NCBI GenBank assembly: GCA_012103475.1
Contig: WLWS01000001.1
Coordinates: 641,881 to 705,880, forward strand
Direction: 5' to 3'
DNA from: Gammaproteobacteria bacterium
GTDB lineage: Bacteria; Pseudomonadota; Gammaproteobacteria; Eutrophobiales; Eutrophobiaceae
Length of the DNA: 64,000 nucleotides
The notes under the pieces were generated by a model. The model saw only the letters and a program-made list of their open reading frames with translations, had not been told where the DNA came from and ran no database searches. Shown here piece after piece: positions 4,401 to 55,881 of this stretch; position 1 is the first letter of the stretch, and every line of letters begins with the position of its first letter. The position numbers and the translations under genes were made by a program.

Positions 4401-5270
4401 CTAACCGTAACGACCGGTTATATAATCTTCCGTCATTTTCTCGCCTGGCGTAGTAAAAAGGGTGTTAGTGTCATTGAATTCCACCATCTTGCCCAGATAC
4501 ATGTAGGCCGTATAGTCCGAGACACGGGCAGCCTGCTGCATATTATGAGTAACAATGACGATTGTATAATCGTGCCTTAATTCATATATCAATTCTTCGA
4601 TTTTCAGAGTCGAAATCGGATCCAGGGCTGAAGCAGGCTCATCAAGCAGTAACACTTCCGGCTCAATGGCAATCGCTCTGGCGATAACCAGTCTTTGTTG
4701 CTGACCACCGGACAGACCCATGGCGTTATCATCCAGTCGATCTTTTACTTCATCCCACAAGGCGGCACCTTGCAGGGATTTTTCCACAGCTTCGGCAAGT
4801 ACACGCCTGTCTTTCACACCCTGAATTCTGAGACCATAGGCTACGTTCTCAAAAATTGATTTTGGGAATGGATTGGGTTTTTGAAATACCATTCCAACCC
4901 GCCTGCGCAATTCAGCAACATTTATGTCCTTAGCGTAAATATCATGATCATAAAGACTCATCTTGCCATCGATTCGAACAATATCAATTAAGTCGTTCAT
5001 TCTGTTCATGCAGCGTAACAAAGTTGATTTGCCACAACCGCTGGGGCCGATAAAAGCCGTTACTCTTTTCTCCGGGATAGTAAGGTTAATATTTTCCAGA
5101 GCCTGCTTTTCGGCATAGTAAAGATTGAAGTCCTCTACCGTAATACAGGTCTGTTCCTTTTCCAGACTCAGGTGACTCGAGGACCGCGTTAATGAACTCA
5201 TGTCAATGGCATGTGTTTTGGCAGCACTCGACTCTGCATCATTCAATTGTTCTTCAATAGTATCGGACAT
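4401..5270 (-). CDS. pstB: Possible independently initiated PstB ATPase module inside the fused ORF
   Basis: In-frame ATGs occur at 5288 and 5270. AGGA lies 8 nt upstream of the ATG at 5270. From this Met the protein aligns in length with free-standing PstB proteins. Confidence 0.4.
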
Positions 5271-6971
5271 AGACGGATTCCTATCCATTATCTGGCTAGT
5301 GTTGCTCTGCTGCACGGTATTTTTCTCTCTCAGGTTATTACGAATCTTCACTGCTGTCAGGTTCAATGCAATGATAATAAGGATTAATAACAGGGCAGTG
5401 GCATAAACCAACGGCCTTGCGGCCTCCACATTGGGGCTCTGAAAACCAACATCATAAATATGAAAACCAAGATGCATAAACTTCCGGTCCATATGTAAAT
5501 AAGGGAAATTTCCATCCAGAGGCAGAGATGGTGCCAGTTTCACAACGCCAACCAGCATCAGCGGTGCCACTTCACCGGCAGCACGGGCAACTGCAAGAAT
5601 CAGACCCGTCATCATTGCCGAAGCGGTCATCGGCAGCACCGTCAGCCATAAGGTTTCCGCTTTGGTTGCACCAAGTGCAAGGCTACCCTCGCGAATGGAA
5701 CGCGGTACACGTGATAATCCTTCTTCAGTCGCAACGATCACGACGGGCACAGTTAAGATGGCCAGAGTCAGTGACGCCCACATCAAACCCGGTGTACCAA
5801 AAGTCGGTGTTGGCAAGGCCTCTGGAAAAAGTAACTGGTCAATCGAACCACCGAGAAAATACACAAAAAAACCCAGACCAAAAACGCCATAGACAACAGA
5901 CGGTACTCCGGCAAGATTATTAACTGCGATACGAATCAACCTGGTCACTGGTCCCTGAGTAGCATACTCCCGCAGATAGACCGCTGCGATTACACCAAAA
6001 GGCGTCACCAGTACTGCCATGATCATAACCATCATCACCGTGCCGAATATGGCAGGGAAAATACCTCCTTCCGTATTTGCCTCGCGCGGCTCTGCACTCA
6101 TGAACTCCCAGAGTTTTTCAAAATAGAAAAACAACTTGTCTACACGCGACATTGTATTCGGGCGGTGAGCGCGAATAACTTTAGCGGTGGGAATTTCAAC
6201 AATCTCACCACTTGCAAGGCTGGCGACAAAACTGCTTCGGTTCAGCTCGGTGTACAGCTCACTTAACTCCTGAGTGTAGCCCTCATACTCCAGCTGCAAG
6301 CCTGCCCGTTCAGAGGAGATTTCCTTTAAGGCCAAATCTGTGGCTTTGCCCTTCAACTCCAGACCTCTTTGTTTCAGTCGTAGACGTTCCATCTTGTAGT
6401 TGATGGCGCCGATCAAATCTTTTTCAATATGTCGAATCTGATCAAAGGTTTCACCCGCCTCTTTTATCTTCTCTTGAAACTGCAGCCATTGCTCTTCGGC
6501 AGCGGCCAGAGTCTTACCGTCTTCCTTGATTTCTTTGAGGAATCCATAAAGATTTCCCCACTCCCGACGCTCCACCACCATCACTTCAGCTGGAGTGTCG
6601 ATACTTCCCATATCTGCTTCAAGCACCCAACGAAAATCAAGACCAAGATAATCACGGTTACCGGTCTTCAACAAAAAGCGTTTTATCAAGCCATCGGCAT
6701 CAGCGCTGATCTCCTGCTCTGTATCAAGTTGCGATAGCGGTAATTTTTCTTCATCGACGACTTCACCTATGAGCACCGTGATAGCACTGCCGTCATTGTA
6801 TTCAAAACTTACTACCTGTTGTGGCCAGTAATGACCCAGCCCACGCACAGCTATCAGGCCAACCAGGCCAGCCACCATGATGATTGACAGACTTACGGCA
6901 CCGGCGTTTAACCAGATGTAGGGTTCACCACTGCTAATCCATTTTTTGATATTCATCGGCCGTTTACTCAA
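4401..6971 (-). CDS. Phosphate ABC transporter, permease PstA fused in frame to ATPase PstB (single 856-aa ORF)
   Basis: The first ~560 aa form a long-form PstA with multiple TM segments and an ABC permease EAA-like loop. The last ~290 aa form PstB, with Walker [10 protein letters not shown], signature LSGGQQQR and Walker B LLLDEP. No stop codon separates the two modules. Confidence 0.8.
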
Positions 6972-29634: not shown

Positions 29635-30708
29635 CTAATAATCATCAGGTGCAAAAACAACCAGATGATCGAGTTCAAGACGAATACCAATGGCTTCGTC
29701 AATAGCGTGATTATGATGACTTGGCACCAGTGACAGTACCTGAGCATGACTTTGCAATTCCAGAGTATAAAGAAACTCAGCTCCTCTGAAGGACTTGTCC
29801 AGCACCTTTGCCTGCATATCGCTATTGTCATCATGAATAATATCATCCGGCCGAATCAGCACCCGGACTTTATCGTTTGTCTTAAACCCGTGATTGCGGC
29901 GACCGTTTATTATACCCAGTTCGGTTTCAACCCTTTTGCTATCAATAACTGTACCGCCTATGAATACACCGTCACCGATAAAATCAGCGACATAAGTGCT
30001 AGCTGGTTGATGATATAAAGTGAAAGCATCGTCCCATTGCAGGAGAGTGCCGTCGCGCATTACACCGATTGAATCGGCCATTGCAAAAGCTTCCATTTGA
30101 TTGTGTGTCACCAGTATTGCCGTTATGCCGTTTTTCTTAAGCACCTCCCGCATTTCCCTGGCAATCTGCTCACGCAGTTCTATATCGAGACTGGCGAAAG
30201 GCTCATCCAGTAAAAGGATATTGGGGCGGGTAGCAATCGCCCTGGCAAGCGCGACGCGTTGTTGTTGCCCGCCGGAGAGACGATGAGGATACTCATCGAG
30301 CAAAAGCTGCACTTCCAGTAAATCCGCCATTTCGCTAACGCGCTCATCTTGCTCACTTCGGCTCAGTTTGTGAATACCAAAGGAAATGTTCTCACGCACT
30401 TTCAGATGTGGAAACAAGGCGTAATCCTGAAAGACCATACCGACGTGACGATTTTCTACCGGCACCGATCGGTCTGGGTCACTGACCAGACGCGATTCGA
30501 GCCAGATTTCTCCCGCGTCTGCTTGTTCAAAACCGGCAATACTGCGCAATAAGGTCGTTTTTCCACAGCCGCTCGGACCCAGCAGGCAACCAATCTCGCC
30601 TTTTTCAAGGGAAAACGACAGAGACTTAACTATCGATCGCCCTTCCAGGGCCACGCTGACTTCTTTCAATTCGAGTGTATTAGTCATGTCCTGGTCGTGA
30701 TTTGGCAA
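29635..30708 (-). CDS. fbpC: Fe(3+) ABC transporter ATP-binding protein
   Basis: 357 aa. It has Walker A GPSGCGKTT, signature LSGGQQQRV, Walker B LLLDEP and a C-terminal TOBE-like domain. The start could instead be the Met at 30687. Confidence 0.85.
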   Translation of the reverse strand: MPNHDQDMTNTLELKEVSVALEGRSIVKSLSFSLEKGEIGCLLGPSGCGKTTLLRSIAGFEQADAGEIWLESRLVSDPDRSVPVENRHVGMVFQDYALFPHLKVRENISFGIHKLSRSEQDERVSEMADLLEVQLLLDEYPHRLSGGQQQRVALARAIATRPNILLLDEPFASLDIELREQIAREMREVLKKNGITAILVTHNQMEAFAMADSIGVMRDGTLLQWDDAFTLYHQPASTYVADFIGDGVFIGGTVIDSKRVETELGIINGRRNHGFKTNDKVRVLIRPDDIIHDDNSDMQAKVLDKSFRGAEFLYTLELQSHAQVLSLVPSHHNHAIDEAIGIRLELDHLVVFAPDDY

Positions 30709-32356
30709 TCGAGCGGCTCAATATAATAACCGGAATAATACCAGCCAGCACAATTGCTAGCGCCGGGCTCGCCGCATCAGCCAGTCTTTCCTCATTGGCA
30801 AGCTCATAGGTTCTGATAGCGAGGGTATTAAAATTAAATGGTCTGAGGATTAATGTTGCCGGCAGTTCTTTCAACACATCCACAAAAACCAGTAGCAGTG
30901 CTGTAAGAAGCGACCCCTTTAACATTGGCACATGCACCCGCCGCAAAATGGCGAGCGTGGGTAAACCCATGCTGCGGCCGACTTCATCCATAGTCGGTCG
31001 AATCTTGCTCAGACCGGCCTCAACCGTGTTCATAGACACCGGCAGGAAGCGAACCAGATAAGCAAACACTAGCGCGAAAAGCGTCCCGCTGAAAAGCAGA
31101 CCTGTACTGATATCCATATTTTCCCGCATCCAACCGTCTATCCGGTTATCCAGCCAGCTAAAGGGAATTAGCACACCGACTGCAATCACCGTGCCCGGAA
31201 TGGCATAACCGGTACTTAGCAATCTGACGATAAAACGGCTTAATGAATTAGACAACACGCGCTTGCCGTAGCAAATAAAAACAGCAAGCACCAGAGCCGC
31301 AAGCGAGGCCAATGCCGCTAATTCAAGACTGTGAGCAAGCAAGCTCAGAAACTCGTCATCAATCACATCCGACCAGGTTTGTTTTGCCCAGACGAGCAAC
31401 TGAATCGCGGGCACTATAAAACCGAAGGTAAGCGGTACTATGCAAATCAATGTCGGTACGAATCTACGCCAACCAGTAAACTGCGTGCGCCGCAGTTTGC
31501 TGTAACGTGTGCTGGTGTGATGATAGCGTGCCTGCTTTCGTGACCAGGCTTCCAGCAACACGACCAGCGTGATAAAACCCAGCAGCACGGCGGCAAGCTG
31601 AGCCGCGGCGACGCTACTGCCAAGACCAAACCAGGTGCGGAATATTCCGGTGGTAAAAGTCTCCACACCGAAATACTGTACGGTACCGTAATCAGCCAGC
31701 GTTTCCATCATAACCAGAGAAAGACCCGCTATGATGGCAGGCCGAGCCAGCGGCAGAGCCACCTTAAAAAAAGAACGGCAGGGTCCGCAACCAAGCGATC
31801 GGGAGACTTCAAGGACGCAGATGGATTGCTCATTAAAAGCCGCGCGACAGAGCAAATACACATAGGGGTACAGAACCAGTGCCAACATCAATATGGCTCC
31901 GCCTATAGAGCGTATTTCAGGAAACCAGTAGTCACCGAATTGCCAGCCAAACAAATCCCTGAGTTGTGATTGCAGCGGGCCGGCCGCATCCAGCATACCG
32001 GTATAGGTATAGGCAATGATGTAAGCAGGCATGGCCATCGGAAGCAACAAGCCCCAGGACAGCACTTTCCTGCCGGGGAAATCATACATCGTCGTCAACC
32101 AGGCCGGAACAGTACCCAGCACCATCGCAAGTGCACACACACCAGCAAGCAGTATCAGGGAATTAACAACGTAAGAAGACAGTACCGTTTCATAAAGATG
32201 TTGCCAGACATCTGCACCTGGCAAGAACACTGAGAAAACAATACAAACAACCGGTATTGCCAGTACCAGCGACAGTAACATGAGCAACAACAGCCAGGGA
32301 TGAAAATTGCCTGTCGCTAAGGAAGGAGTTGGCGCCTCAAGAGTGGCACTGGTCAT
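30680..32356 (-). CDS. fbpB: Fe(3+) ABC transporter permease (duplicated permease domains)
   Basis: 558 aa. It shows a 12-TM-type pattern with two ABC permease modules, and sits between fbpA and fbpC. Confidence 0.85.
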   Translation of the reverse strand: MTSATLEAPTPSLATGNFHPWLLLLMLLSLVLAIPVVCIVFSVFLPGADVWQHLYETVLSSYVVNSLILLAGVCALAMVLGTVPAWLTTMYDFPGRKVLSWGLLLPMAMPAYIIAYTYTGMLDAAGPLQSQLRDLFGWQFGDYWFPEIRSIGGAILMLALVLYPYVYLLCRAAFNEQSICVLEVSRSLGCGPCRSFFKVALPLARPAIIAGLSLVMMETLADYGTVQYFGVETFTTGIFRTWFGLGSSVAAAQLAAVLLGFITLVVLLEAWSRKQARYHHTSTRYSKLRRTQFTGWRRFVPTLICIVPLTFGFIVPAIQLLVWAKQTWSDVIDDEFLSLLAHSLELAALASLAALVLAVFICYGKRVLSNSLSRFIVRLLSTGYAIPGTVIAVGVLIPFSWLDNRIDGWMRENMDISTGLLFSGTLFALVFAYLVRFLPVSMNTVEAGLSKIRPTMDEVGRSMGLPTLAILRRVHVPMLKGSLLTALLLVFVDVLKELPATLILRPFNFNTLAIRTYELANEERLADAASPALAIVLAGIIPVIILSRSIAKSRPGHD

Positions 32357-35225: not shown

Positions 35226-37282
35226 ATGACCAAGCCACAAATCGATAAAAGCGCACTACCGCAGTTCAGTACAATCCAGCCCGCACAAATTCAGGCAAGC
35301 ATAGAAAAGCTAATCTGTGACAACAAGGCTTCGATGGAAAAGTTGCTGGCCGCCAACACAGTCTACAACTGGGAAAATTTGATCCAGGTACTTGAAAATG
35401 ACGCAGACCGACTTAGTCGTGCCTGGTCGCCAATCAATCATCTGCACTCGGTCGCGGATAACGACGAGCTGCGTGAGGCTTATAACGCCTGTCTGCCACC
35501 ACTCACAGAATACGGCACTGAACTGGGACAACATGAAGGGCTGTTCCGTGCCTATCAGCAAATCAGAGATAGCGCCGGCTTCCAGAAACTGCATGCGGCT
35601 CAGCAAAAATCGATCGAAAATGAACTGCGCGACTTTCACTTATCCGGAATTGGTCTCGCAAACGAAGAACGCGAAAGCTATCGCTCGATCAAACAAAAAC
35701 TCTCAAAACTGCAAACACGCTACGAGGAAAACCTTCTCGACGCCACTCAGGCCTGGCAGAAACTTATCGTCGATCAGAAACAGCTGGCAGGGATGCCAGA
35801 GTCGGCTATCGCATTAGCCGCACAAACAGCAGAGAGAGAGAGAAGCAGACAGGCTGGTTGTTAACACTGGATTTCCCCAGCTATCTGCCGGTTATGCAAT
35901 ACGCAGATAATCGCGAATTGCGCGAAGAAATGTATAAGGCTTACGTTACCCGCGCCTCCGAGCAGGCAGCGAATGCGGAGCAGTGGGACAATGGTGAGTT
36001 GATGGTAGAGATTGTTGAGCTACGCCAACAGCTTGCTCAATTACTTGATTTCGACTCTTATGCCGATTATTCATTGGCCAGAAAAATGGCCTCAACACCA
36101 GCGGAAGTTCTTGGCTTCCTTGAGGATCTGGCTGAACGTTCAAAACCAGTCGCTGAAACCGAACTCGCTGAACTGCAACAGTTTGCCCGCGAGCAGTTTC
36201 AAGTTGATGAGCTACAGGCCTGGGATCTTGGCTACTATTCAGAAAAACTACGCGTACATAAATTTGATATTTCTCAGGAGGAGCTGCGCCCCTATTTTCC
36301 CGCCCCAAAAGTTATCGAGGGAATGTTCGCAGTCGTTAAACGTCTTTACGGTATCACCATCAAGGAAGTGGAAGGCATCGACAGTTGGCACGAAGATGTG
36401 CGTTTTTATGAGATTCAGGACGACAGCGGACAACTGCGTGGTAGTTTCTATCTTGATCTCTATGCCCGCCCGCAAAAGCGGGGCGGAGCCTGGATGGATG
36501 AATGCCTGGTGCGCAGATTCGCTGGCAAAAAGTTGCAGACTCCGGTTGCCTATCTGACCTGTAACTTCAGCCCACCAATAGGAAGCGATCCTTCACTGCT
36601 GACACACGATGAAGTAATCACACTATTCCACGAGTTTGGCCATGGTTTACATCATATGTTAACGCTGGTCGATTACCCGGAGGTGTCCGGCATCAATGGG
36701 GTTGCCTGGGATGCAGTCGAGTTACCCAGCCAGTTTATGGAAAACTGGTGCTGGGAACGTGACTCCATTGCCCTTATTTCAGGTCATTATGAAAGTGGCG
36801 TCCCTTTGCCTGATGAGCTTTATGAGAAGATGTTAAAGGCCCGAACCTTTCATTCCGGCATGCAGATGGTCAGACAACTCGAGTTTTCCTTGTTTGATTT
36901 CCGTCTTCACCATAAACAGAAGGTTTCGAACACAGCTGAGATTCAGGCTTTATTGAATCAGGTTCGTGAGCAGGTGGCTGTCGTCCTCCTACCCGAATAC
37001 AATCGATTTCAGCACAGTTTTTCGCATATTTTCGCCGGCGGCTACGCAGCTGGTTATTATAGTTACAAATGGGCCGAAGTATTATCCGCTGATGCCTTTT
37101 CTAAATTCGAAGAAAACGGTATCTTTGACAGAAAAACAGGGGAACAATTTTTGAACTCGATTCTGGAACAGGGTGGATCGCGCGAACCAATGGAATTATT
37201 CATCGAGTTCAGAGGTCGCAAACCTTCTATCGACGCACTCTTGCGTCATTCAGGGATTCTTCCTGAAGAGGCCGCTGCCTGA
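35226..37282 (+). pseudogene. prlC: Oligopeptidase A, interrupted by a frameshift in an (AG)6 tract
   Basis: ORFs 35226-35864 and 35858-37282 together are collinear with E. coli PrlC. The zinc motif HEFGHGLHH is in the second ORF. The frames switch inside AGAGAGAGAGAG (35831-35842). Confidence 0.85.
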
Positions 37283-52541: not shown

Positions 52542-54426
52542 TCAACACGCAGCCTGTAAACCAGCGTAGGCCAGCACCAGCCATTTACTACCAGCACCTT
52601 CGAAATGCACCTGTACTCTGGCGTGACTGCCACTGCCCTCCAGGTTGAGTACCACACCTTCTCCAAAACGATTGTGCACAACACGCTGACCTAGCGAAAA
52701 ATCACCTTCTTCCTGTAACACTTCCTGTTGCTGCTGGGAGAACATCTGCTGACTCACACCACCGCCACCCAGACGAATTTCATTTAGTAGTTCGCCCGGA
52801 ATTTCTCCGATAAAACGAGAGGGTGTCGGGTAATAATCAGAACCATGCAGTCTGCGGTGTTGGGCAAAGGTCAGAGTCAGATTGCTCCTGGCCCGGGTAA
52901 TACCGACGTAACAGAGTCGACGTTCTTCTTCCAGTTGCACCAGATCAATGTTCAACCAGACCACTATGTTTGATGACCGTGTCGACTGCCTCATCCAGTG
53001 TCAGACCCTGAATTTCCGAAGCGATTAACTGAATGAGTTTAAGAAAGCGTTCCAGTGCCCCAAGTGCTCTGGCAGATAGCGATTTATCATGGAGAATCTG
53101 CACGGCTGCCTGCCACATCGGTACATTTTCCCGCCGCGCAATAATACGTAACTCCTCGAGAGTGCGCTGACCGATACCACGAGTGGGCGTGTTAACGATG
53201 CGTTCAAAAGAGGCGTCGTCATCATTAAAACTGGCAAGCCGCAGGTAGGCGAGGGTGTCTTTTATTTCGGCGCGTTCATAAAAACGCATGCCTCCGTATA
53301 CACGATAAGGAATACTCGCCTGCATCAGCGTCTCTTCAAGTACACGTGACTGTGCGCTTACCCGATAAAGCACGGCATGATCGTTATACAAGAGAGTGTC
53401 CTGTTTTGCCGCGCGAATGGATTCAATCACATAGCGGGCTTCATCGTGTTCGTTGTAAGCAGAATAAAGACCGATCTTTTCGCCATCTTCATCTTCCGTC
53501 CAGAGTTCTTTACCAAGACGGGAATCATTATTTGCAATCAGTGTATTGGCCGCTTTCAGAATATTGGCAGTGGAACGATAGTTTTGTTCCAGTTTCATTA
53601 ATCTGGTACCGGGAATATCTTTTTGAAACTGCTGCATATTCTCAATCCGCGCACCGCGCCAGCCATAAACAGACTGATCATCATCGCCGACAGCAAACAG
53701 GGCACCAGTGTCACCGACCAGCAGGCGCAACCAGGCATACTGCAGGGCATTGGTGTCCTGAAACTCATCCACCAATACGTGACGAAATCGCTCACGGTAA
53801 TTCTTCAGCAACGCATCGTTGTCACGAAACAACTCGTGCGCACGTAAGAGTAGCTCAGCGAAGTCGACCAGACCGCTACGCGCACAGGTTTGCTCATAGA
53901 CCTGATATATATGGATAAGCTGAGCCATGGTTTGATCGCCATCATCATCGAGGTGCTGCGGTCTTAAGCCCTCATCTTTGCGACCATTGATAAACCATTG
54001 CGATTCGCGTGGTGGAAACTGGCTTTCGTCCAGTTGCATGCCTCGTATGACCCGGCGGATAGTCCGGTACTGATCATCACTATCGAGAATCTGAAAACTC
54101 TCCGGCAAACCTGCTTCCTGCCAGTGCGCACGCAAAAGTCTGTGCGCTATACCATGAAAAGTCCCCACCCACATCCCGCCAATCGGTCTATCCAGTAAAG
54201 TCTCAATACGCGAGCGCATTTCCGCAGCGGCTTTATTGGTAAAGGTGACAGCGAGAATCCCATAAGGGCTGGTCTGATTGGTTTCGATATACCAGGCGAT
54301 GCGATGGACCAGTACCCGGGTCTTGCCACTACCGGCTCCGGCCAGCAACAGAATATTGCCAGTCGGTGCGGCCACAGCTTCACGCTGAGCTTCATTAAGG
54401 GGATCAAGTACGGCAGAAACATCCAT
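52542..54426 (-). pseudogene. uvrD: DNA helicase II (UvrD) with ~100-codon internal deletion and frame change
   Basis: The N-part (from MDVSAVLDPLNEAQREAV, GAGSGKT, DEFQDTN) ends at ...IKHSGLVEH*. The C-part resumes in another frame at LEEERRLCYVGITRA. The segment that carries helicase motif V (TLHSAKGLEF in E. coli) is absent. Confidence 0.85.
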
Positions 54427-54543
54427 CGTCCGGATTTTAACAGAATGCCCGGCAAAGGTTTGCATGATGAATTCTTTTTCCATCACCAGAGCGCCGGCGC
54501 AGGGAAGAATGTTAGACTAGCGCTTTTTTACAAAGGACAGGCT

Positions 54544-55881
54544 GTGACAACTTCTGAAAACTCGGATAAGCAACAGGATCTTGCCGGAATCGTTCAGCTG
54601 GTGCTGGACACGGCAAAAACCTGTGGTGCCACCTCAAGTGAAGCCGACATCGGTGTTGGTGAAGGTCTCTCGGTGACTGTGCGTATGGGTGAGCTGGAAA
54701 CAATCGAACACCAGCGTGACAAAGGCATGAGTGTCACCGTCTATGTTGGTCAGCGCAAGGCCAGTGCCAGTACAACGGATTTCAGTGACAAGGCGATTCG
54801 CGAATCGGTTGAGGCGGCCTGTGCGATTGCAAAAAATGCCAGCGAAGACAAGTATGCCGGCTTGATTGATGCCCGTTATATCGCCACCGAGCTGCCCGAT
54901 CTGGATCTTAATCACCCCTGGACCATTACTGCAGAGCAGGCGACGGAGTTGGCACTCGAGTGCGAAACCATCGCACGGATGAGTGACAAACGAATCAATA
55001 ATGCCGATGGCACACTGGTGAATGCCTATTCCGGTCAGCACATGTACGGTAACTCACACGGTTTCATCGGTGGCTGGGACTGGTCCAGCCACAGCATCGA
55101 TTGCACGGTTATTGCCGAAGAAAATGGCATGCAACGCGACGGCTGGTACAGTAAGGCAAGGGCCTCTGAAGATCTCGAACCTGTAGCCAGTATAGGCAGA
55201 AAGGCCGCTAAACGAACAGTAGAACGCCTTGGCTCGCGAAAACTGAGTACGCGCCAATGTCCGGTGTTGTTTGAGGCGCCGCTTGCCAGCAGTCTGTTCG
55301 GTGCCTTTATTGGTGCCATTTCCGGCGGATCCTTATATAGAAAAGCGAGTTTTATGCTGGATAAGATTGATCAGCAGATTTTCGCGGATCACATCCATAT
55401 CCATGAAAATCCCTATCTGCCACGCGCCATGGGAAGCGCACCTTTTGATTCTGACGGAATGACCACCCGCACACGCGATATTGTCAAAGACGGCATTCTG
55501 CAGGGATATGTGCTGAGTGCCTATTCAGCCAGAAAACTCGGTCTTGAACCTACCGGAAACGCGGGTGGCGTGCATAACCTGCATATTACTCCCGGGGAAC
55601 AGAACATGGATTCCTTAATCAAAACCATGCATGAGGGTCTGCTGGTCACCGATATGATCGGTTTTGGTGTGAATCAGGTGACTGGTGATTATTCACGTGG
55701 TGCCGCAGGCTTCTGGATTGAAAACGGTGAAATTCAGTATCCGGTTGAAGAAATCACAGTGGCAGGAAATTTGCTTGATATGTACATGCAAATAGTTGCG
55801 GTTGGCAATGATGTCGACAACCGCGGCAATACCCGAACCGGTTCGGTATTGATAGAAAACATGACCATCGCCGGAGAATAA
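54544..55881 (+). CDS. pmbA: Metalloprotease PmbA (TldE)
   Basis: 445 aa from the GTG at 54544, matching the length and pattern of PmbA. The ORF-track 5' extension overlaps uvrD and is discounted. Confidence 0.88.
   Translation: MTTSENSDKQQDLAGIVQLVLDTAKTCGATSSEADIGVGEGLSVTVRMGELETIEHQRDKGMSVTVYVGQRKASASTTDFSDKAIRESVEAACAIAKNASEDKYAGLIDARYIATELPDLDLNHPWTITAEQATELALECETIARMSDKRINNADGTLVNAYSGQHMYGNSHGFIGGWDWSSHSIDCTVIAEENGMQRDGWYSKARASEDLEPVASIGRKAAKRTVERLGSRKLSTRQCPVLFEAPLASSLFGAFIGAISGGSLYRKASFMLDKIDQQIFADHIHIHENPYLPRAMGSAPFDSDGMTTRTRDIVKDGILQGYVLSAYSARKLGLEPTGNAGGVHNLHITPGEQNMDSLIKTMHEGLLVTDMIGFGVNQVTGDYSRGAAGFWIENGEIQYPVEEITVAGNLLDMYMQIVAVGNDVDNRGNTRTGSVLIENMTIAGE

What the first reader, a model, noticed from the sequence alone, without database searches (positions are those of the whole stretch)
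52542..54426. uvrD (DNA helicase II) appears inactivated by a ~300-bp internal deletion plus frame change
Seen in sequence:
- The N-terminal ORF (motifs GAGSGKT, DEFQDTN) stops at ...IKHSGLVEH* (stop at 52945-52947).
- Homology resumes in a different frame about 10 codons later at LEEERRLCYVGITRA.
- Compared with E. coli UvrD as I recall it (HSGLWTMY...TLHSAKGLEFPQVF...LEEERRLAYVGVTRA), about 100 residues including helicase motif V are missing.
- The junction lies within about 52935-52965.

Inference:
- UvrD is required for methyl-directed mismatch repair and for nucleotide excision repair, so loss predicts a mutator and hyper-recombination phenotype.
- The same window contains a frameshift in an (AG)6 tract (prlC) and a gene fusion next to an A5 run (pstA-pstB).
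- Simple-repeat indels of that kind are expected in an MMR-defective lineage. They could equally be signatures of a low-quality assembly.
Basis: partly seen in the sequence, partly recalled or inferred. Interest (0 to 1): 0.6.

Follow-up and report, generated by a model that had tools for sequence, protein, structure and literature searches.

The report
Recent uvrD knock-out in sponge bacterium
The DNA-repair helicase gene uvrD of an uncultured bacterium from the sponge Mycale hentscheli has been knocked out by one recent 284-base deletion that several independent assemblies reproduce; this is ordinary gene decay, notable mainly because its bacterial family has no second helicase of this type.

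Summary
The window's uvrD carries one 284-nt out-of-frame deletion, with the junction at 52946-52948. It removes the equivalent of E. coli UvrD residues 491-590, including motif V. A TGA stop forms at the junction, and motif VI and the C-terminal Tudor-like domain end up out of frame.

It is not an assembly error. The junction is identical in the MaSuRCA hybrid MAG, two ENA re-assemblies and a Logan contig built only from Illumina run SRR10090331.

The genome is a Pseudohongiellaceae (UBA9145) MAG from the sponge Mycale hentscheli.

The loss is very recent. There are no further lesions, and dN/dS against 96%-identical intact orthologues is 0.03, the same as between those orthologues.

- mutS, mutL, uvrA, uvrC, mfd, recA and recFOR look intact.
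- Essential genes are unbroken.
- About 2.2% of 628 orthologues are disrupted, against 0.7% in a congener (p=0.035). That is an ordinary pseudogene load, and all hits are in accessory genes.
- The prlC (AG)6 frameshift and the pstA A5 frameshift are both real.

One twist: all 30 other high-quality genomes searched in the family have an uninterrupted uvrD (28 have just this one match) and none has a Rep-like gene.

The parts
52948..54426 (-). uvrD 5' part: codons 1-493 from the MDVS start, equivalent to E. coli UvrD 1-490. It covers domains 1A and 1B, the first 2A segment and most of 2B, with motifs I (GAGSGKT) and II (DEFQDTN).
   Evidence: Translation. phmmer against PDB 3lfu/2is1, E=3e-199, query 21-510 matching chain 1-490. 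Precomputed Pfam hits PF00580 and PF13361 on the same ORF in ENA and Logan contigs.
52946..52948 (-). Junction of the 284-nt deletion (...GAACAT[T]|GATCTGGTG...), with 1 nt of microhomology. The missing segment encodes FRKEKGEK...MTLHSAKGLEFP...HQRSSD in relatives: the end of domain 2B, the start of the second 2A segment, and motif V.
   Evidence: DNA alignments A1. Intact relatives. The junction is identical in four assemblies. The missing segment is nowhere else in the assembly.
52945..52947 (-). TGA stop created directly at the junction. It ends the product after residue 493 with no missense tail.
   Evidence: Sequence; ORF list.
52542..52945 (-). uvrD 3' part, out of frame with the 5' part. 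It is equivalent to E. coli UvrD 591-720 and holds motif VI (LEEERRLCYVGITRA) and the C-terminal Tudor-like domain. There are no further stops or indels.
   Evidence: phmmer against PDB 2is1 residues 591-679, plus the UvrD C-terminal domain structures 6yi2 and 7egs. Pfam PF21196. tblastn q591-719.
35226..37282 (+). prlC (oligopeptidase A), split into 212-aa (TOP_N) and 474-aa (Peptidase_M3) ORFs by a frame change inside (AG)6A at 35831-35843. Removing one AG unit restores collinearity with the orthologue.
   Evidence: The same split is present in the ENA contig, the Logan contig and GCA_012263305.1.
4401..6971 (-). pstA read through into pstB as an 856-aa ORF (BPD_transp_1 plus ABC_tran). One extra A in the run at 5320-5324 causes it. 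Only the last ~7 codons of pstA change, and pstB keeps possible starts of its own.
   Evidence: Pfam. In congener G004 pstA ends ...REKYSAAE* and pstB starts in another frame. Sequence.

Best explanation
uvrD in this genome is a real and very recent null allele. One illegitimate deletion of 284 nt, with 1 nt of microhomology and no flanking repeat, removed codons 494-588. These encode the end of domain 2B, the start of the second 2A segment and motif V. The deletion also shifted the frame, so a TGA at the junction ends translation after residue 493. Motif VI and the RNA-polymerase-binding C-terminal domain are no longer translated with the rest.

Shown here:
- the lesion and its exact size;
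- its presence in the DNA of the sampled population, seen in four assemblies, one of them from Illumina reads alone;
- its absence from every relative examined;
- its recency.

The organism is an uncultured Pseudohongiellaceae bacterium (GTDB genus UBA9145) that is abundant in one specimen of the sponge Mycale hentscheli.

Inferred from established knowledge of UvrD:
- The 493-residue product cannot act as a helicase.
- The cell should therefore be defective in the post-incision step of nucleotide excision repair, in strand removal during mismatch repair, and in removing RecA from DNA. It should also lack its accessory replicative helicase.
- These defects predict UV sensitivity, a higher mutation rate and hyper-recombination.

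The other broken genes in the genome are best read as an ordinary, slightly raised load of recent pseudogenes in accessory genes. They are not a proven consequence of the uvrD loss.
For: Lesion.

Relatives:
- Four same-genus genomes have open uvrD frames of 729-798 aa.
- Among the ~120 closest database proteins, nearly all full-length entries are 716-735 aa. The nearest are 96% identical and intact.
- All 30 high-quality family genomes (29 genera) have an uninterrupted uvrD frame.

Not an artefact:
- The truncated ORFs are on record from ENA ERZ23499467 (615-kb scaffold), ENA ERZ23499434 and Logan SRR10090331.
- 200 nt across the junction are identical in all four assemblies.
- Flanks are 100% identical over 12-21 kb.
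- SRR10090331 is the Illumina PE150 run. The MAG comes from a MaSuRCA hybrid of Illumina and PacBio reads (PMC7157528).
- The missing 284 nt are not elsewhere in the assembly.

Recency:
- There are no extra stops or indels in 1885 nt.
- dN/dS is 0.029-0.032 against intact relatives, and 0.032 between those relatives.
- Lineage-specific amino-acid changes are 13 against 11 and 17.

Base-level quality of the assembly: rpoB, rpoC, secA, alaS, fusA, ribosomal proteins, the dcw cluster and about 140 other E. coli orthologues are single unbroken alignments. Long ORFs cover 92% of the genome, against 93% in the congener.
Against: - The allele frequency in the population is unknown.
- All read sets came from one DNA extraction of one sponge (PMC7157528), so the four assemblies are technical replicates, not biological ones.
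- The genome is incomplete: 87% by this tool's figure, 94% by the authors'. A second helicase gene in the unassembled part cannot be excluded outright.
- Losing the only UvrD/Rep-type helicase is expected to be costly. E. coli rep uvrD double mutants are inviable on rich medium (PMC4999830), and PcrA is essential in B. subtilis (PMC7385302). No obvious suppressor was seen: recA, recF, recO, recR and mfd are intact.
- No phenotype has been measured.
Confidence: 0.8

Rival explanations
1. The deletion is real but only one allele in a mixed population. Cells with intact uvrD coexist in the sponge, and the null clone is transient (for example a hitch-hiking or mildly deleterious variant), so the species as a whole is not UvrD-deficient.
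For: - The lesion is extremely young.
- uvrD is kept in 30 of 30 family genomes, which implies strong selection against loss.
- The short ENA S001 scaffold carries 2 SNPs in 2.5 kb relative to the MAG, so some strain variation exists.
- A 99.99%-identical contig from another assembly (GCA_012263305.1) ends about 1.2 kb before uvrD. That could reflect a graph break at a polymorphic site, but this is speculative.
Against: - Every assembly that crosses the site shows the deletion allele, including a 20.5-kb Illumina-only Logan contig that runs straight through it.
- No intact protein more than 96% identical is on record in the 15-billion-protein collection.
- The variant S001 scaffold with 2 SNPs also carries the deletion.
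Confidence: 0.13
2. One reading: this is a long-standing mismatch-repair-defective mutator lineage, and the simple-repeat frameshifts in prlC, pstA and elsewhere are its footprint.
For: - There are three indel lesions in one 64-kb window.
- G000 has about three times more disrupted orthologues than congener G004: 14 of 628 against 5 of 682, Fisher p=0.035.
- The events include homopolymer +/-1 changes, an (AG)n change, an 11-nt tandem duplication and a 13-nt deletion between GAAATGG repeats. From my own knowledge, uvrD mutants of E. coli show these classes at raised rates.
- uvrD inactivation is a recognised cause of hypermutation in P. aeruginosa (PMC9355025).
Against: - uvrD shows dN/dS 0.03 and no excess of amino-acid changes on this branch, and it has a single lesion. 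It was functional until very recently.
- mutS and mutL are intact.
- A load of about 2% pseudogenes is within the normal range for bacteria (my own knowledge).
- 6 of the 14 events are nonsense substitutions, and the affected genes are all accessory. That pattern fits relaxed selection as well as it fits a mutator.
- The prlC frameshift is shared with a second, slightly different assembly, so it may predate the uvrD deletion.
Confidence: 0.1
3. Assembly or consensus artefact: a collapse or mis-join created the 284-nt gap, and the organism has an intact gene of about 720 codons.
For: The genome is a metagenome-assembled hybrid (Illumina plus PacBio Sequel CLR) of 17 contigs with 87% estimated completeness. 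Reads could not be inspected.
Against: - Four assemblies made with different software and read sets give the identical junction.
- No repeat flanks the site that could cause a collapse.
- The missing segment is absent from all contigs.
- Base-level quality is high in about 250 checked conserved genes.
Confidence: 0.03
4. The two ORFs still give function, either as a split helicase or as a truncated protein that keeps a useful activity.
For: Both parts are free of further lesions, and the 3' ORF has an in-frame ATG at 52994.
Against: - Motif V and about 95 residues of the 2B/2A core are simply absent, not encoded elsewhere.
- No relative has such an arrangement.
- The lack of further lesions is explained by recency.
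Confidence: 0.02

Closest known systems
Natural uvrD-inactivated hypermutators, the mutS/mutL/uvrD class, in Pseudomonas aeruginosa chronic-infection isolates (PMC9355025)
   Same: Both are gammaproteobacteria of the order Pseudomonadales without MutH, in which a spontaneous inactivating lesion in uvrD arises in a host-associated population. The lesion is recent and strain-level.
   Different: There the mutator phenotype was measured and P. aeruginosa also has Rep (my own knowledge). Here no phenotype is known, the organism is uncultured, and the family has no Rep.
Loss and pseudogenisation of NER genes, including uvrD, in vesicomyid clam symbionts (Shimamura et al. 2017, PMC5310779)
   Same: A marine-invertebrate-associated gammaproteobacterium loses uvrD by deletion or frameshift. 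The authors discuss this as a driver of further genome erosion.
   Different: Those symbionts are obligate intracellular bacteria with ~1-Mb genomes (stated for related Calyptogena symbionts in PMC3202245), and the paper reports loss of further NER genes. This genome is 4.2 Mb with 92% ORF coverage, has a single young lesion, and keeps most repair genes intact. I read only the abstract of that paper.
E. coli rep uvrD double mutant and B. subtilis pcrA depletion (PMC4999830, PMC7385302)
   Same: Both genotypes lack every UvrD/Rep/PcrA-type accessory helicase, which is what this genome appears to be.
   Different: Those are laboratory constructs. They are inviable on rich medium unless rescued by slow growth or by RNA polymerase, spoT or recFOR/recJ/recQ mutations. 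Here the genotype occurs naturally, its viability is only inferred from its abundance in the metagenome, and recF, recO, recR and recA look intact.

Membership tests
UvrD / DNA helicase II (SF1A; PF00580 + PF13361 + PF21196) | N-terminal ATPase core with motif I (GxGxGKT) and motif II (DExQD) | tested here: met
   GAGSGKT and DEFQDTN are in the 5' ORF. phmmer against E. coli UvrD structures gives E=3e-199.
UvrD / DNA helicase II (SF1A; PF00580 + PF13361 + PF21196) | Orthology: best match to UvrD rather than Rep or PcrA, and conserved neighbourhood | tested here: met
   UvrD scores 666 bits, PcrA 385 and Rep 317. pmbA lies next to uvrD in G002, G004 and GCA_025491055.1, and dctP follows uvrD in the last of these.
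UvrD / DNA helicase II (SF1A; PF00580 + PF13361 + PF21196) | Uninterrupted ~720-residue frame collinear with E. coli UvrD | tested here: not met
   E. coli residues 491-590 have no counterpart, and the remainder is in another frame.
UvrD / DNA helicase II (SF1A; PF00580 + PF13361 + PF21196) | Motif V (TLHxAKGLEF) present, and motif VI (VGxTRA) in frame with the ATPase core | tested here: not met
   Motif V lies inside the deleted 284 nt (relatives). Motif VI is present only in the shifted frame.
Recent unitary pseudogene | The lesion is in the DNA of the organism, not made by the assembler | tested here: met
   The junction is identical in four assemblies, one of them Illumina-only (Logan).
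Recent unitary pseudogene | No second intact copy in the genome | tested here: met
   A search of the own genome finds only uvrD and an AddA/RecB-like helicase-nuclease on C5. The missing segment is absent. An E. coli Rep query hits only uvrD. Caveat: the assembly is 87-94% complete.
Recent unitary pseudogene | Relaxed selection after inactivation (raised dN/dS, secondary lesions) | tested here: not met
   dN/dS is 0.03 and there are no secondary lesions. I read this as recency, not as evidence of function.
Mismatch-repair-deficient natural mutator | Inactivating lesion in mutS, mutL or uvrD | tested here: met
   uvrD is null. mutS (C6:362340-364856) and mutL (C9:211275-212795) are single unbroken alignments.
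Mismatch-repair-deficient natural mutator | Genome-wide excess of simple-repeat indels and transitions | tested here: inconclusive
   14 of 628 genes are disrupted, against 5 of 682 in a congener, p=0.035. The spectrum is mixed. Synonymous sites are saturated against all available relatives (dS 0.8-1.0), so no substitution spectrum could be derived.
Mismatch-repair-deficient natural mutator | Measured elevated mutation rate | not testable with these tools
   The organism is uncultured.
Symbiont reductive genome evolution with loss of repair genes | Reduced genome, low coding density, many pseudogenes | tested here: not met
   The genome is 4.19 Mb, long ORFs cover 92% of it and the mean ORF is 338 aa, much as in the congener. 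About 2% of orthologues are disrupted.
Symbiont reductive genome evolution with loss of repair genes | Several repair or recombination genes lost | tested here: inconclusive
   uvrA, uvrC, mfd, recA, recF, recO, recR, mutS, mutL, lexA and ssb are intact. uvrB was not found, but its whole 40-kb neighbourhood in G004 is also missing from this assembly. ung, recBCD and mutH were not found in this assembly; relatives were not searched for them, so lineage-typical absence and incompleteness cannot be told apart.

The most novel reading that the evidence does not exclude
The dominant in-sponge population of this Pseudohongiellaceae species is a viable natural null for the only UvrD/Rep/PcrA-type helicase its family has. 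That makes it a wild counterpart of the conditionally lethal E. coli rep uvrD double mutant, perhaps tolerated because the bacterium grows slowly inside the host. It would be a currently hypermutating, hyper-recombining clone caught at the first step of the repair-gene loss that precedes symbiont genome erosion.
Probability: 0.3. Interest if true: 0.55.

Novelty: new member of a known kind. Interest (0 to 1): 0.3.

Why it matters
Spontaneous loss of uvrD is a known route to hypermutation and has been reported in eroding symbiont genomes, so the event is not new in kind.

It matters in a modest way for three reasons.
- It is a well-authenticated case caught very early: one lesion and no decay.
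- It sits in a large, otherwise healthy genome of a sponge-associated bacterium.
- In this family uvrD is universally kept and is the only UvrD/Rep-type helicase.

If the null genotype is fixed and viable, it bears on how essential accessory replicative helicases are outside fast-growing model bacteria. It also gives a natural starting point for studying how repair loss begins in host-associated bacteria.

For annotation, uvrD, prlC and about a dozen other genes in this MAG should be marked as pseudogenes, not as sequencing errors.

Tried and rejected
I substituted exact-protein look-ups in independent public assemblies.
2. Searching the second near-identical assembly (GCA_012263305.1) for its uvrD. 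The record is not held. Exact look-ups with the neighbouring DctP and PmbA proteins found only the MH-PAT assemblies. Its 46.6-kb contig ends about 1.2 kb short of uvrD.
3. Looking for an intact conspecific allele (>97% identity). None is in the protein collection; the nearest intact proteins are 96% identical.
4. Repeat-mediated deletion. I rejected this because only 1 nt of microhomology is present. A 10/13 imperfect direct repeat (GGTCTGGTTGAAC / GATCTGGTGCAAC) lies on both sides of the junction, but both copies are retained, so it did not mediate the event.
5. Low G+C as a sign of mutational decay. The genome is 46% G+C against 52% in G004, but the uvrD loci of congeners span 49-55%. No inference was drawn.
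6. Apparent in-frame stops in rpsC, murF, lpd and mltB, and the half-length trpS hit, in the E. coli-based census. All turned out to be natural gene ends or a longer TrpRS type, not lesions.
7. Several 'stops' in the G004-based census (r314, r700, r874, r712, r641). These were shadow ORFs on the wrong strand and were discarded.
8. The 558-aa ORF at 30680-32356. I first suspected it was the pstA-pstB fusion. It is an ordinary two-domain ABC permease.
Full report
**1. What is in the sequence**

On the minus strand, an ORF runs from 54486 (the likely true start is MDVS at 54426) to a TGA at 52945-52947. It carries GAGSGKT and DEFQDTN and ends ...VIKHSGLVEH. A second ORF (52542-52994), in another frame, reads ...IDLVQLEEERRLCYVGITRA... 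and continues to the normal UvrD C-terminus.

- phmmer against the PDB aligns the first ORF to E. coli UvrD residues 1-490 (E=3e-199). It scores far better against UvrD than against PcrA or Rep.
- The second ORF aligns to residues 591-679 and to the isolated UvrD C-terminal domain structures.
- tblastn with E. coli UvrD gives q1-490 and q591-719 in two frames.

**2. One event, not two**

The window was aligned with four genomes of the same genus and with two much closer relatives at 86% nt and 96% aa identity. Both alignments show a single gap of exactly 284 nt, which is 94 codons plus 2 nt.

- The junction is ...GAACAT[T]|GATCTGGTG... at 52946-52948.
- Only one base of microhomology is shared.
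- The TGA that ends the 5' ORF is created at the junction itself.

In relatives the lost segment reads FRKEKGEK...HLMTLHSAKGLEFP...FPHQRSSD, so it contains helicase motif V. By the E. coli domain boundaries as I recall them (2B = 378-550; second 2A segment = 551-647), the deletion takes the last ~60 residues of 2B and the first ~40 of 2A. Motif VI and the Tudor-like tail (Pfam PF21196) are left out of frame. The 493-residue product cannot be a helicase. That last step is an inference from established knowledge of SF1A helicases.

**3. Where the genome comes from**

The exact truncated proteins are on record from several public assemblies. The run and sample accessions lead to Storey et al. 2020, mBio (PMC7157528).

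- The window's genome has 17 contigs, a largest contig of 1,168,214 bp and 46.06% G+C. It matches their MAG SAMN12903686, classified as Pseudohongiellaceae, GTDB genus UBA9145.
- It was assembled with MaSuRCA from Illumina PE250, Illumina PE150 and PacBio Sequel reads, all made from one DNA extraction.

**4. Is the deletion real?**

Other assemblies served as a substitute. The same pair of ORFs occurs on:

- a 615-kb scaffold of ENA assembly ERZ23499467;
- a 2.5-kb scaffold of ENA assembly ERZ23499434;
- a 20.5-kb Logan contig built from run SRR10090331 alone, which is the Illumina PE150 library.

Across the junction, 200 nt are identical in all four assemblies. The flanks are 100% identical over 12-21 kb, and the small ENA scaffold differs by 2 SNPs. 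No repeat flanks the site, and the missing 284 nt are nowhere else in the assembly. An assembler artefact is therefore very unlikely. The allele frequency within the population remains untested.

**5. How unusual, and how old?**

How unusual:
- All four congeners with the locus have open uvrD frames of 729-798 aa.
- Among the ~120 nearest database proteins, nearly all full-length entries are 716-735 aa.
- In 30 high-quality genomes from 29 genera of the family, an E. coli Rep query finds an uninterrupted uvrD in every one.
- In 28 of the 30 this is the only match, at 38-41% identity and at the uvrD locus. The family therefore lacks Rep and universally keeps uvrD.

How old:
- Against the two 96%-identical intact orthologues, dN/dS over the 628 retained codons is 0.029-0.032, the same as between those two (0.032).
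- The window's lineage has 13 private amino-acid changes, against 11 and 17 for the two relatives.
- There is no second lesion in 1885 nt.

uvrD was under strong purifying selection for essentially the whole branch (dS about 0.4-0.5). The deletion is very young.

**6. Is the genome riddled with such lesions?**

I ran two censuses.

(a) E. coli reference. About 170 E. coli K-12 proteins were searched by tblastn against the whole assembly.
- Every essential or housekeeping orthologue checked is a single unbroken alignment. This includes rpoA/B/C, secA/Y, alaS, fusA, tufA, ribosomal proteins, the dcw cluster, dnaA/N/B/X and gyrB.
- Only uvrD and kefB change frame.
- Apparent stops were natural gene ends.

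(b) Congener reference. 1.2 Mb of the near-complete congener G004 was fetched and compared in both directions.
- Of 628 orthologue-like genes, this genome has 8 frame-breaking events and 6 nonsense mutations.
- The frame-breaking events are: uvrD; prlC; the pstA 3' end; +1 in a C run in a Ser/Thr kinase; T6 to T5 in an acyl-CoA ligase; -1 G in a hydantoinase; an 11-nt tandem duplication in an ABC-2 permease; and a 13-nt deletion between GAAATGG repeats in a PilC-like protein.
- The nonsense mutations hit a LytS-type kinase, a nucleotide cyclase, an MFS transporter, a 730-aa protein (signal-peptide-like N-terminus; not scanned against Pfam), a PEP-CTERM-type protein and the tail of a ParA-like protein. 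Four of these families were named by Pfam.
- The reverse comparison finds 5 frame breaks and no nonsense mutation in G004 among 682 genes.
- The difference is about threefold (Fisher p=0.035).
- Long-ORF coverage is 92% against 93%, and mean ORF length is 338 against 346 aa.

This is a normal-to-slightly-raised pseudogene load, confined to accessory genes. It is not the signature of a poor assembly. Nonsense substitutions and an 11-nt duplication are not typical consensus errors, and the prlC break recurs in ENA, Logan and a further NCBI assembly that is 99.99% identical.

**7. Repair context**

- Intact, as single alignments with no stops: mutS, mutL, uvrA, uvrC, mfd, recA, recX, recF, recO, recR, lexA, ssb and a Dam-like methylase.
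- Not found: mutH, recBCD, ung, priC and rep.
- The only other UvrD-fold protein is an 1133-aa AddA/RecB-like helicase-nuclease on contig C5.
- uvrB is also not found, although congeners have it. The whole 40-kb neighbourhood of uvrB in G004 has no counterpart in this assembly, so loss cannot be separated from incompleteness.

**8. Interpretation**

The best-supported reading is a genuine, very recent null mutation of uvrD in the dominant genotype of a sponge-associated bacterium.

The predicted consequences come from model organisms and are not shown here: defects in nucleotide excision repair and mismatch repair, hyper-recombination, and loss of the accessory replicative helicase.
- uvrD inactivation is a recognised cause of hypermutation in P. 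aeruginosa (PMC9355025).
- E. coli lacking both Rep and UvrD is inviable on rich medium. It is rescued by slow growth on minimal medium, by RNA polymerase or spoT mutations, and weakly by recFORJQ defects (PMC4999830).
- PcrA is essential in B. subtilis (PMC7385302).
- A slow-growing sponge associate might tolerate the loss. No recFOR, recA or mfd lesion is present that could act as a suppressor.

It is weakened by the youth of the uvrD lesion and by the presence of the prlC break in a second, slightly different assembly.

**9. Comparison with known cases and verdict**

The closest known cases are natural uvrD mutators in P. aeruginosa and the uvrD/NER pseudogenes of vesicomyid clam symbionts (PMC5310779). 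This is another instance of a known kind of event. Its modest extra interest comes from its authenticated early stage and from the absence of Rep in the family.

Interest is 0.3. The decisive test is read-level allele frequency in this specimen and in the four other sponge specimens.

Noticed in passing
G000 whole assembly; G004:C1:470001-510000 (L173-L174): uvrB is not found in this assembly, although congeners G002, G004 and G005 have it. The entire 40-kb neighbourhood of uvrB in G004 has no orthologues here either. This is either a large missing or unbinned region or a real loss; the two could not be told apart.
   Followed up: partly
G000:C17:516108-516141 (outside the window): kefB is split into two frames at ...GGTCAGCTACTGCTGACCTTCTGA... 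There is no homopolymer run; the context is a short CTG repeat. This is another apparently real frameshift in a non-essential gene.
   Followed up: partly
G000:C17:~809282-809317 and C17:~861341-861356: An 11-nt tandem duplication (TCTTCTGTTTT x2) breaks an ABC-2 permease. A 13-nt deletion between GAAATGG direct repeats breaks a PilC/T2SS-F-like gene. Both are slippage-type lesions, not typical sequencing errors.
   Followed up: partly
G000:C5:235398-238799 (L002): A 1133-aa AddA/RecB-like helicase-nuclease (UvrD-helicase + UvrD_C + PDDEXK_1) is the only other UvrD-fold protein. No recB, recC or recD orthologues were detected, so end processing is probably AddAB-type.
   Followed up: partly
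G000:C6:277788-278585: A Dam-like adenine methyltransferase (50% identical to E. coli Dam) is present although no MutH was found. Methyl-directed strand discrimination is therefore unlikely. The methylase may be an orphan or part of a restriction system.
   Followed up: no
G004:C3 (L102-L161), e.g. concatenated positions 98735-99674: The near-complete congener G004 has its own frame breaks, in rsmH, a 257-aa gene, a 2256-aa gene and two adjacent genes near position 1195200. It was used only as a control. Whether these are real or assembly errors is unknown.
   Followed up: no
L181 (GCA_012263305.1, WLWD01004649.1:21199-42587): A 46.6-kb contig from another NCBI assembly is 99.991% identical to window 25894-47282 (2 SNPs, no gaps) and shares the prlC frameshift. 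It ends about 1.2 kb short of uvrD. Which sponge specimen it comes from could not be established.
   Followed up: partly
whole genome: Completeness is 87.4% by this scan's table but 94.26% in the authors' Data Set S2. thiC, thiE, thiG, murI, corA, wecA, mltA and rlmM gave no tblastn hit with E. coli queries. The columns of the held copy of Data Set S2 appear partly shuffled between rows.
   Followed up: no
window 54304-55881: The listed 525-aa pmbA ORF is over-extended at its 5' end and overlaps the uvrD start region. Gene callers and relatives give 445 aa (start near 54544), so uvrD and pmbA are divergent neighbours with a short shared spacer.
   Followed up: partly
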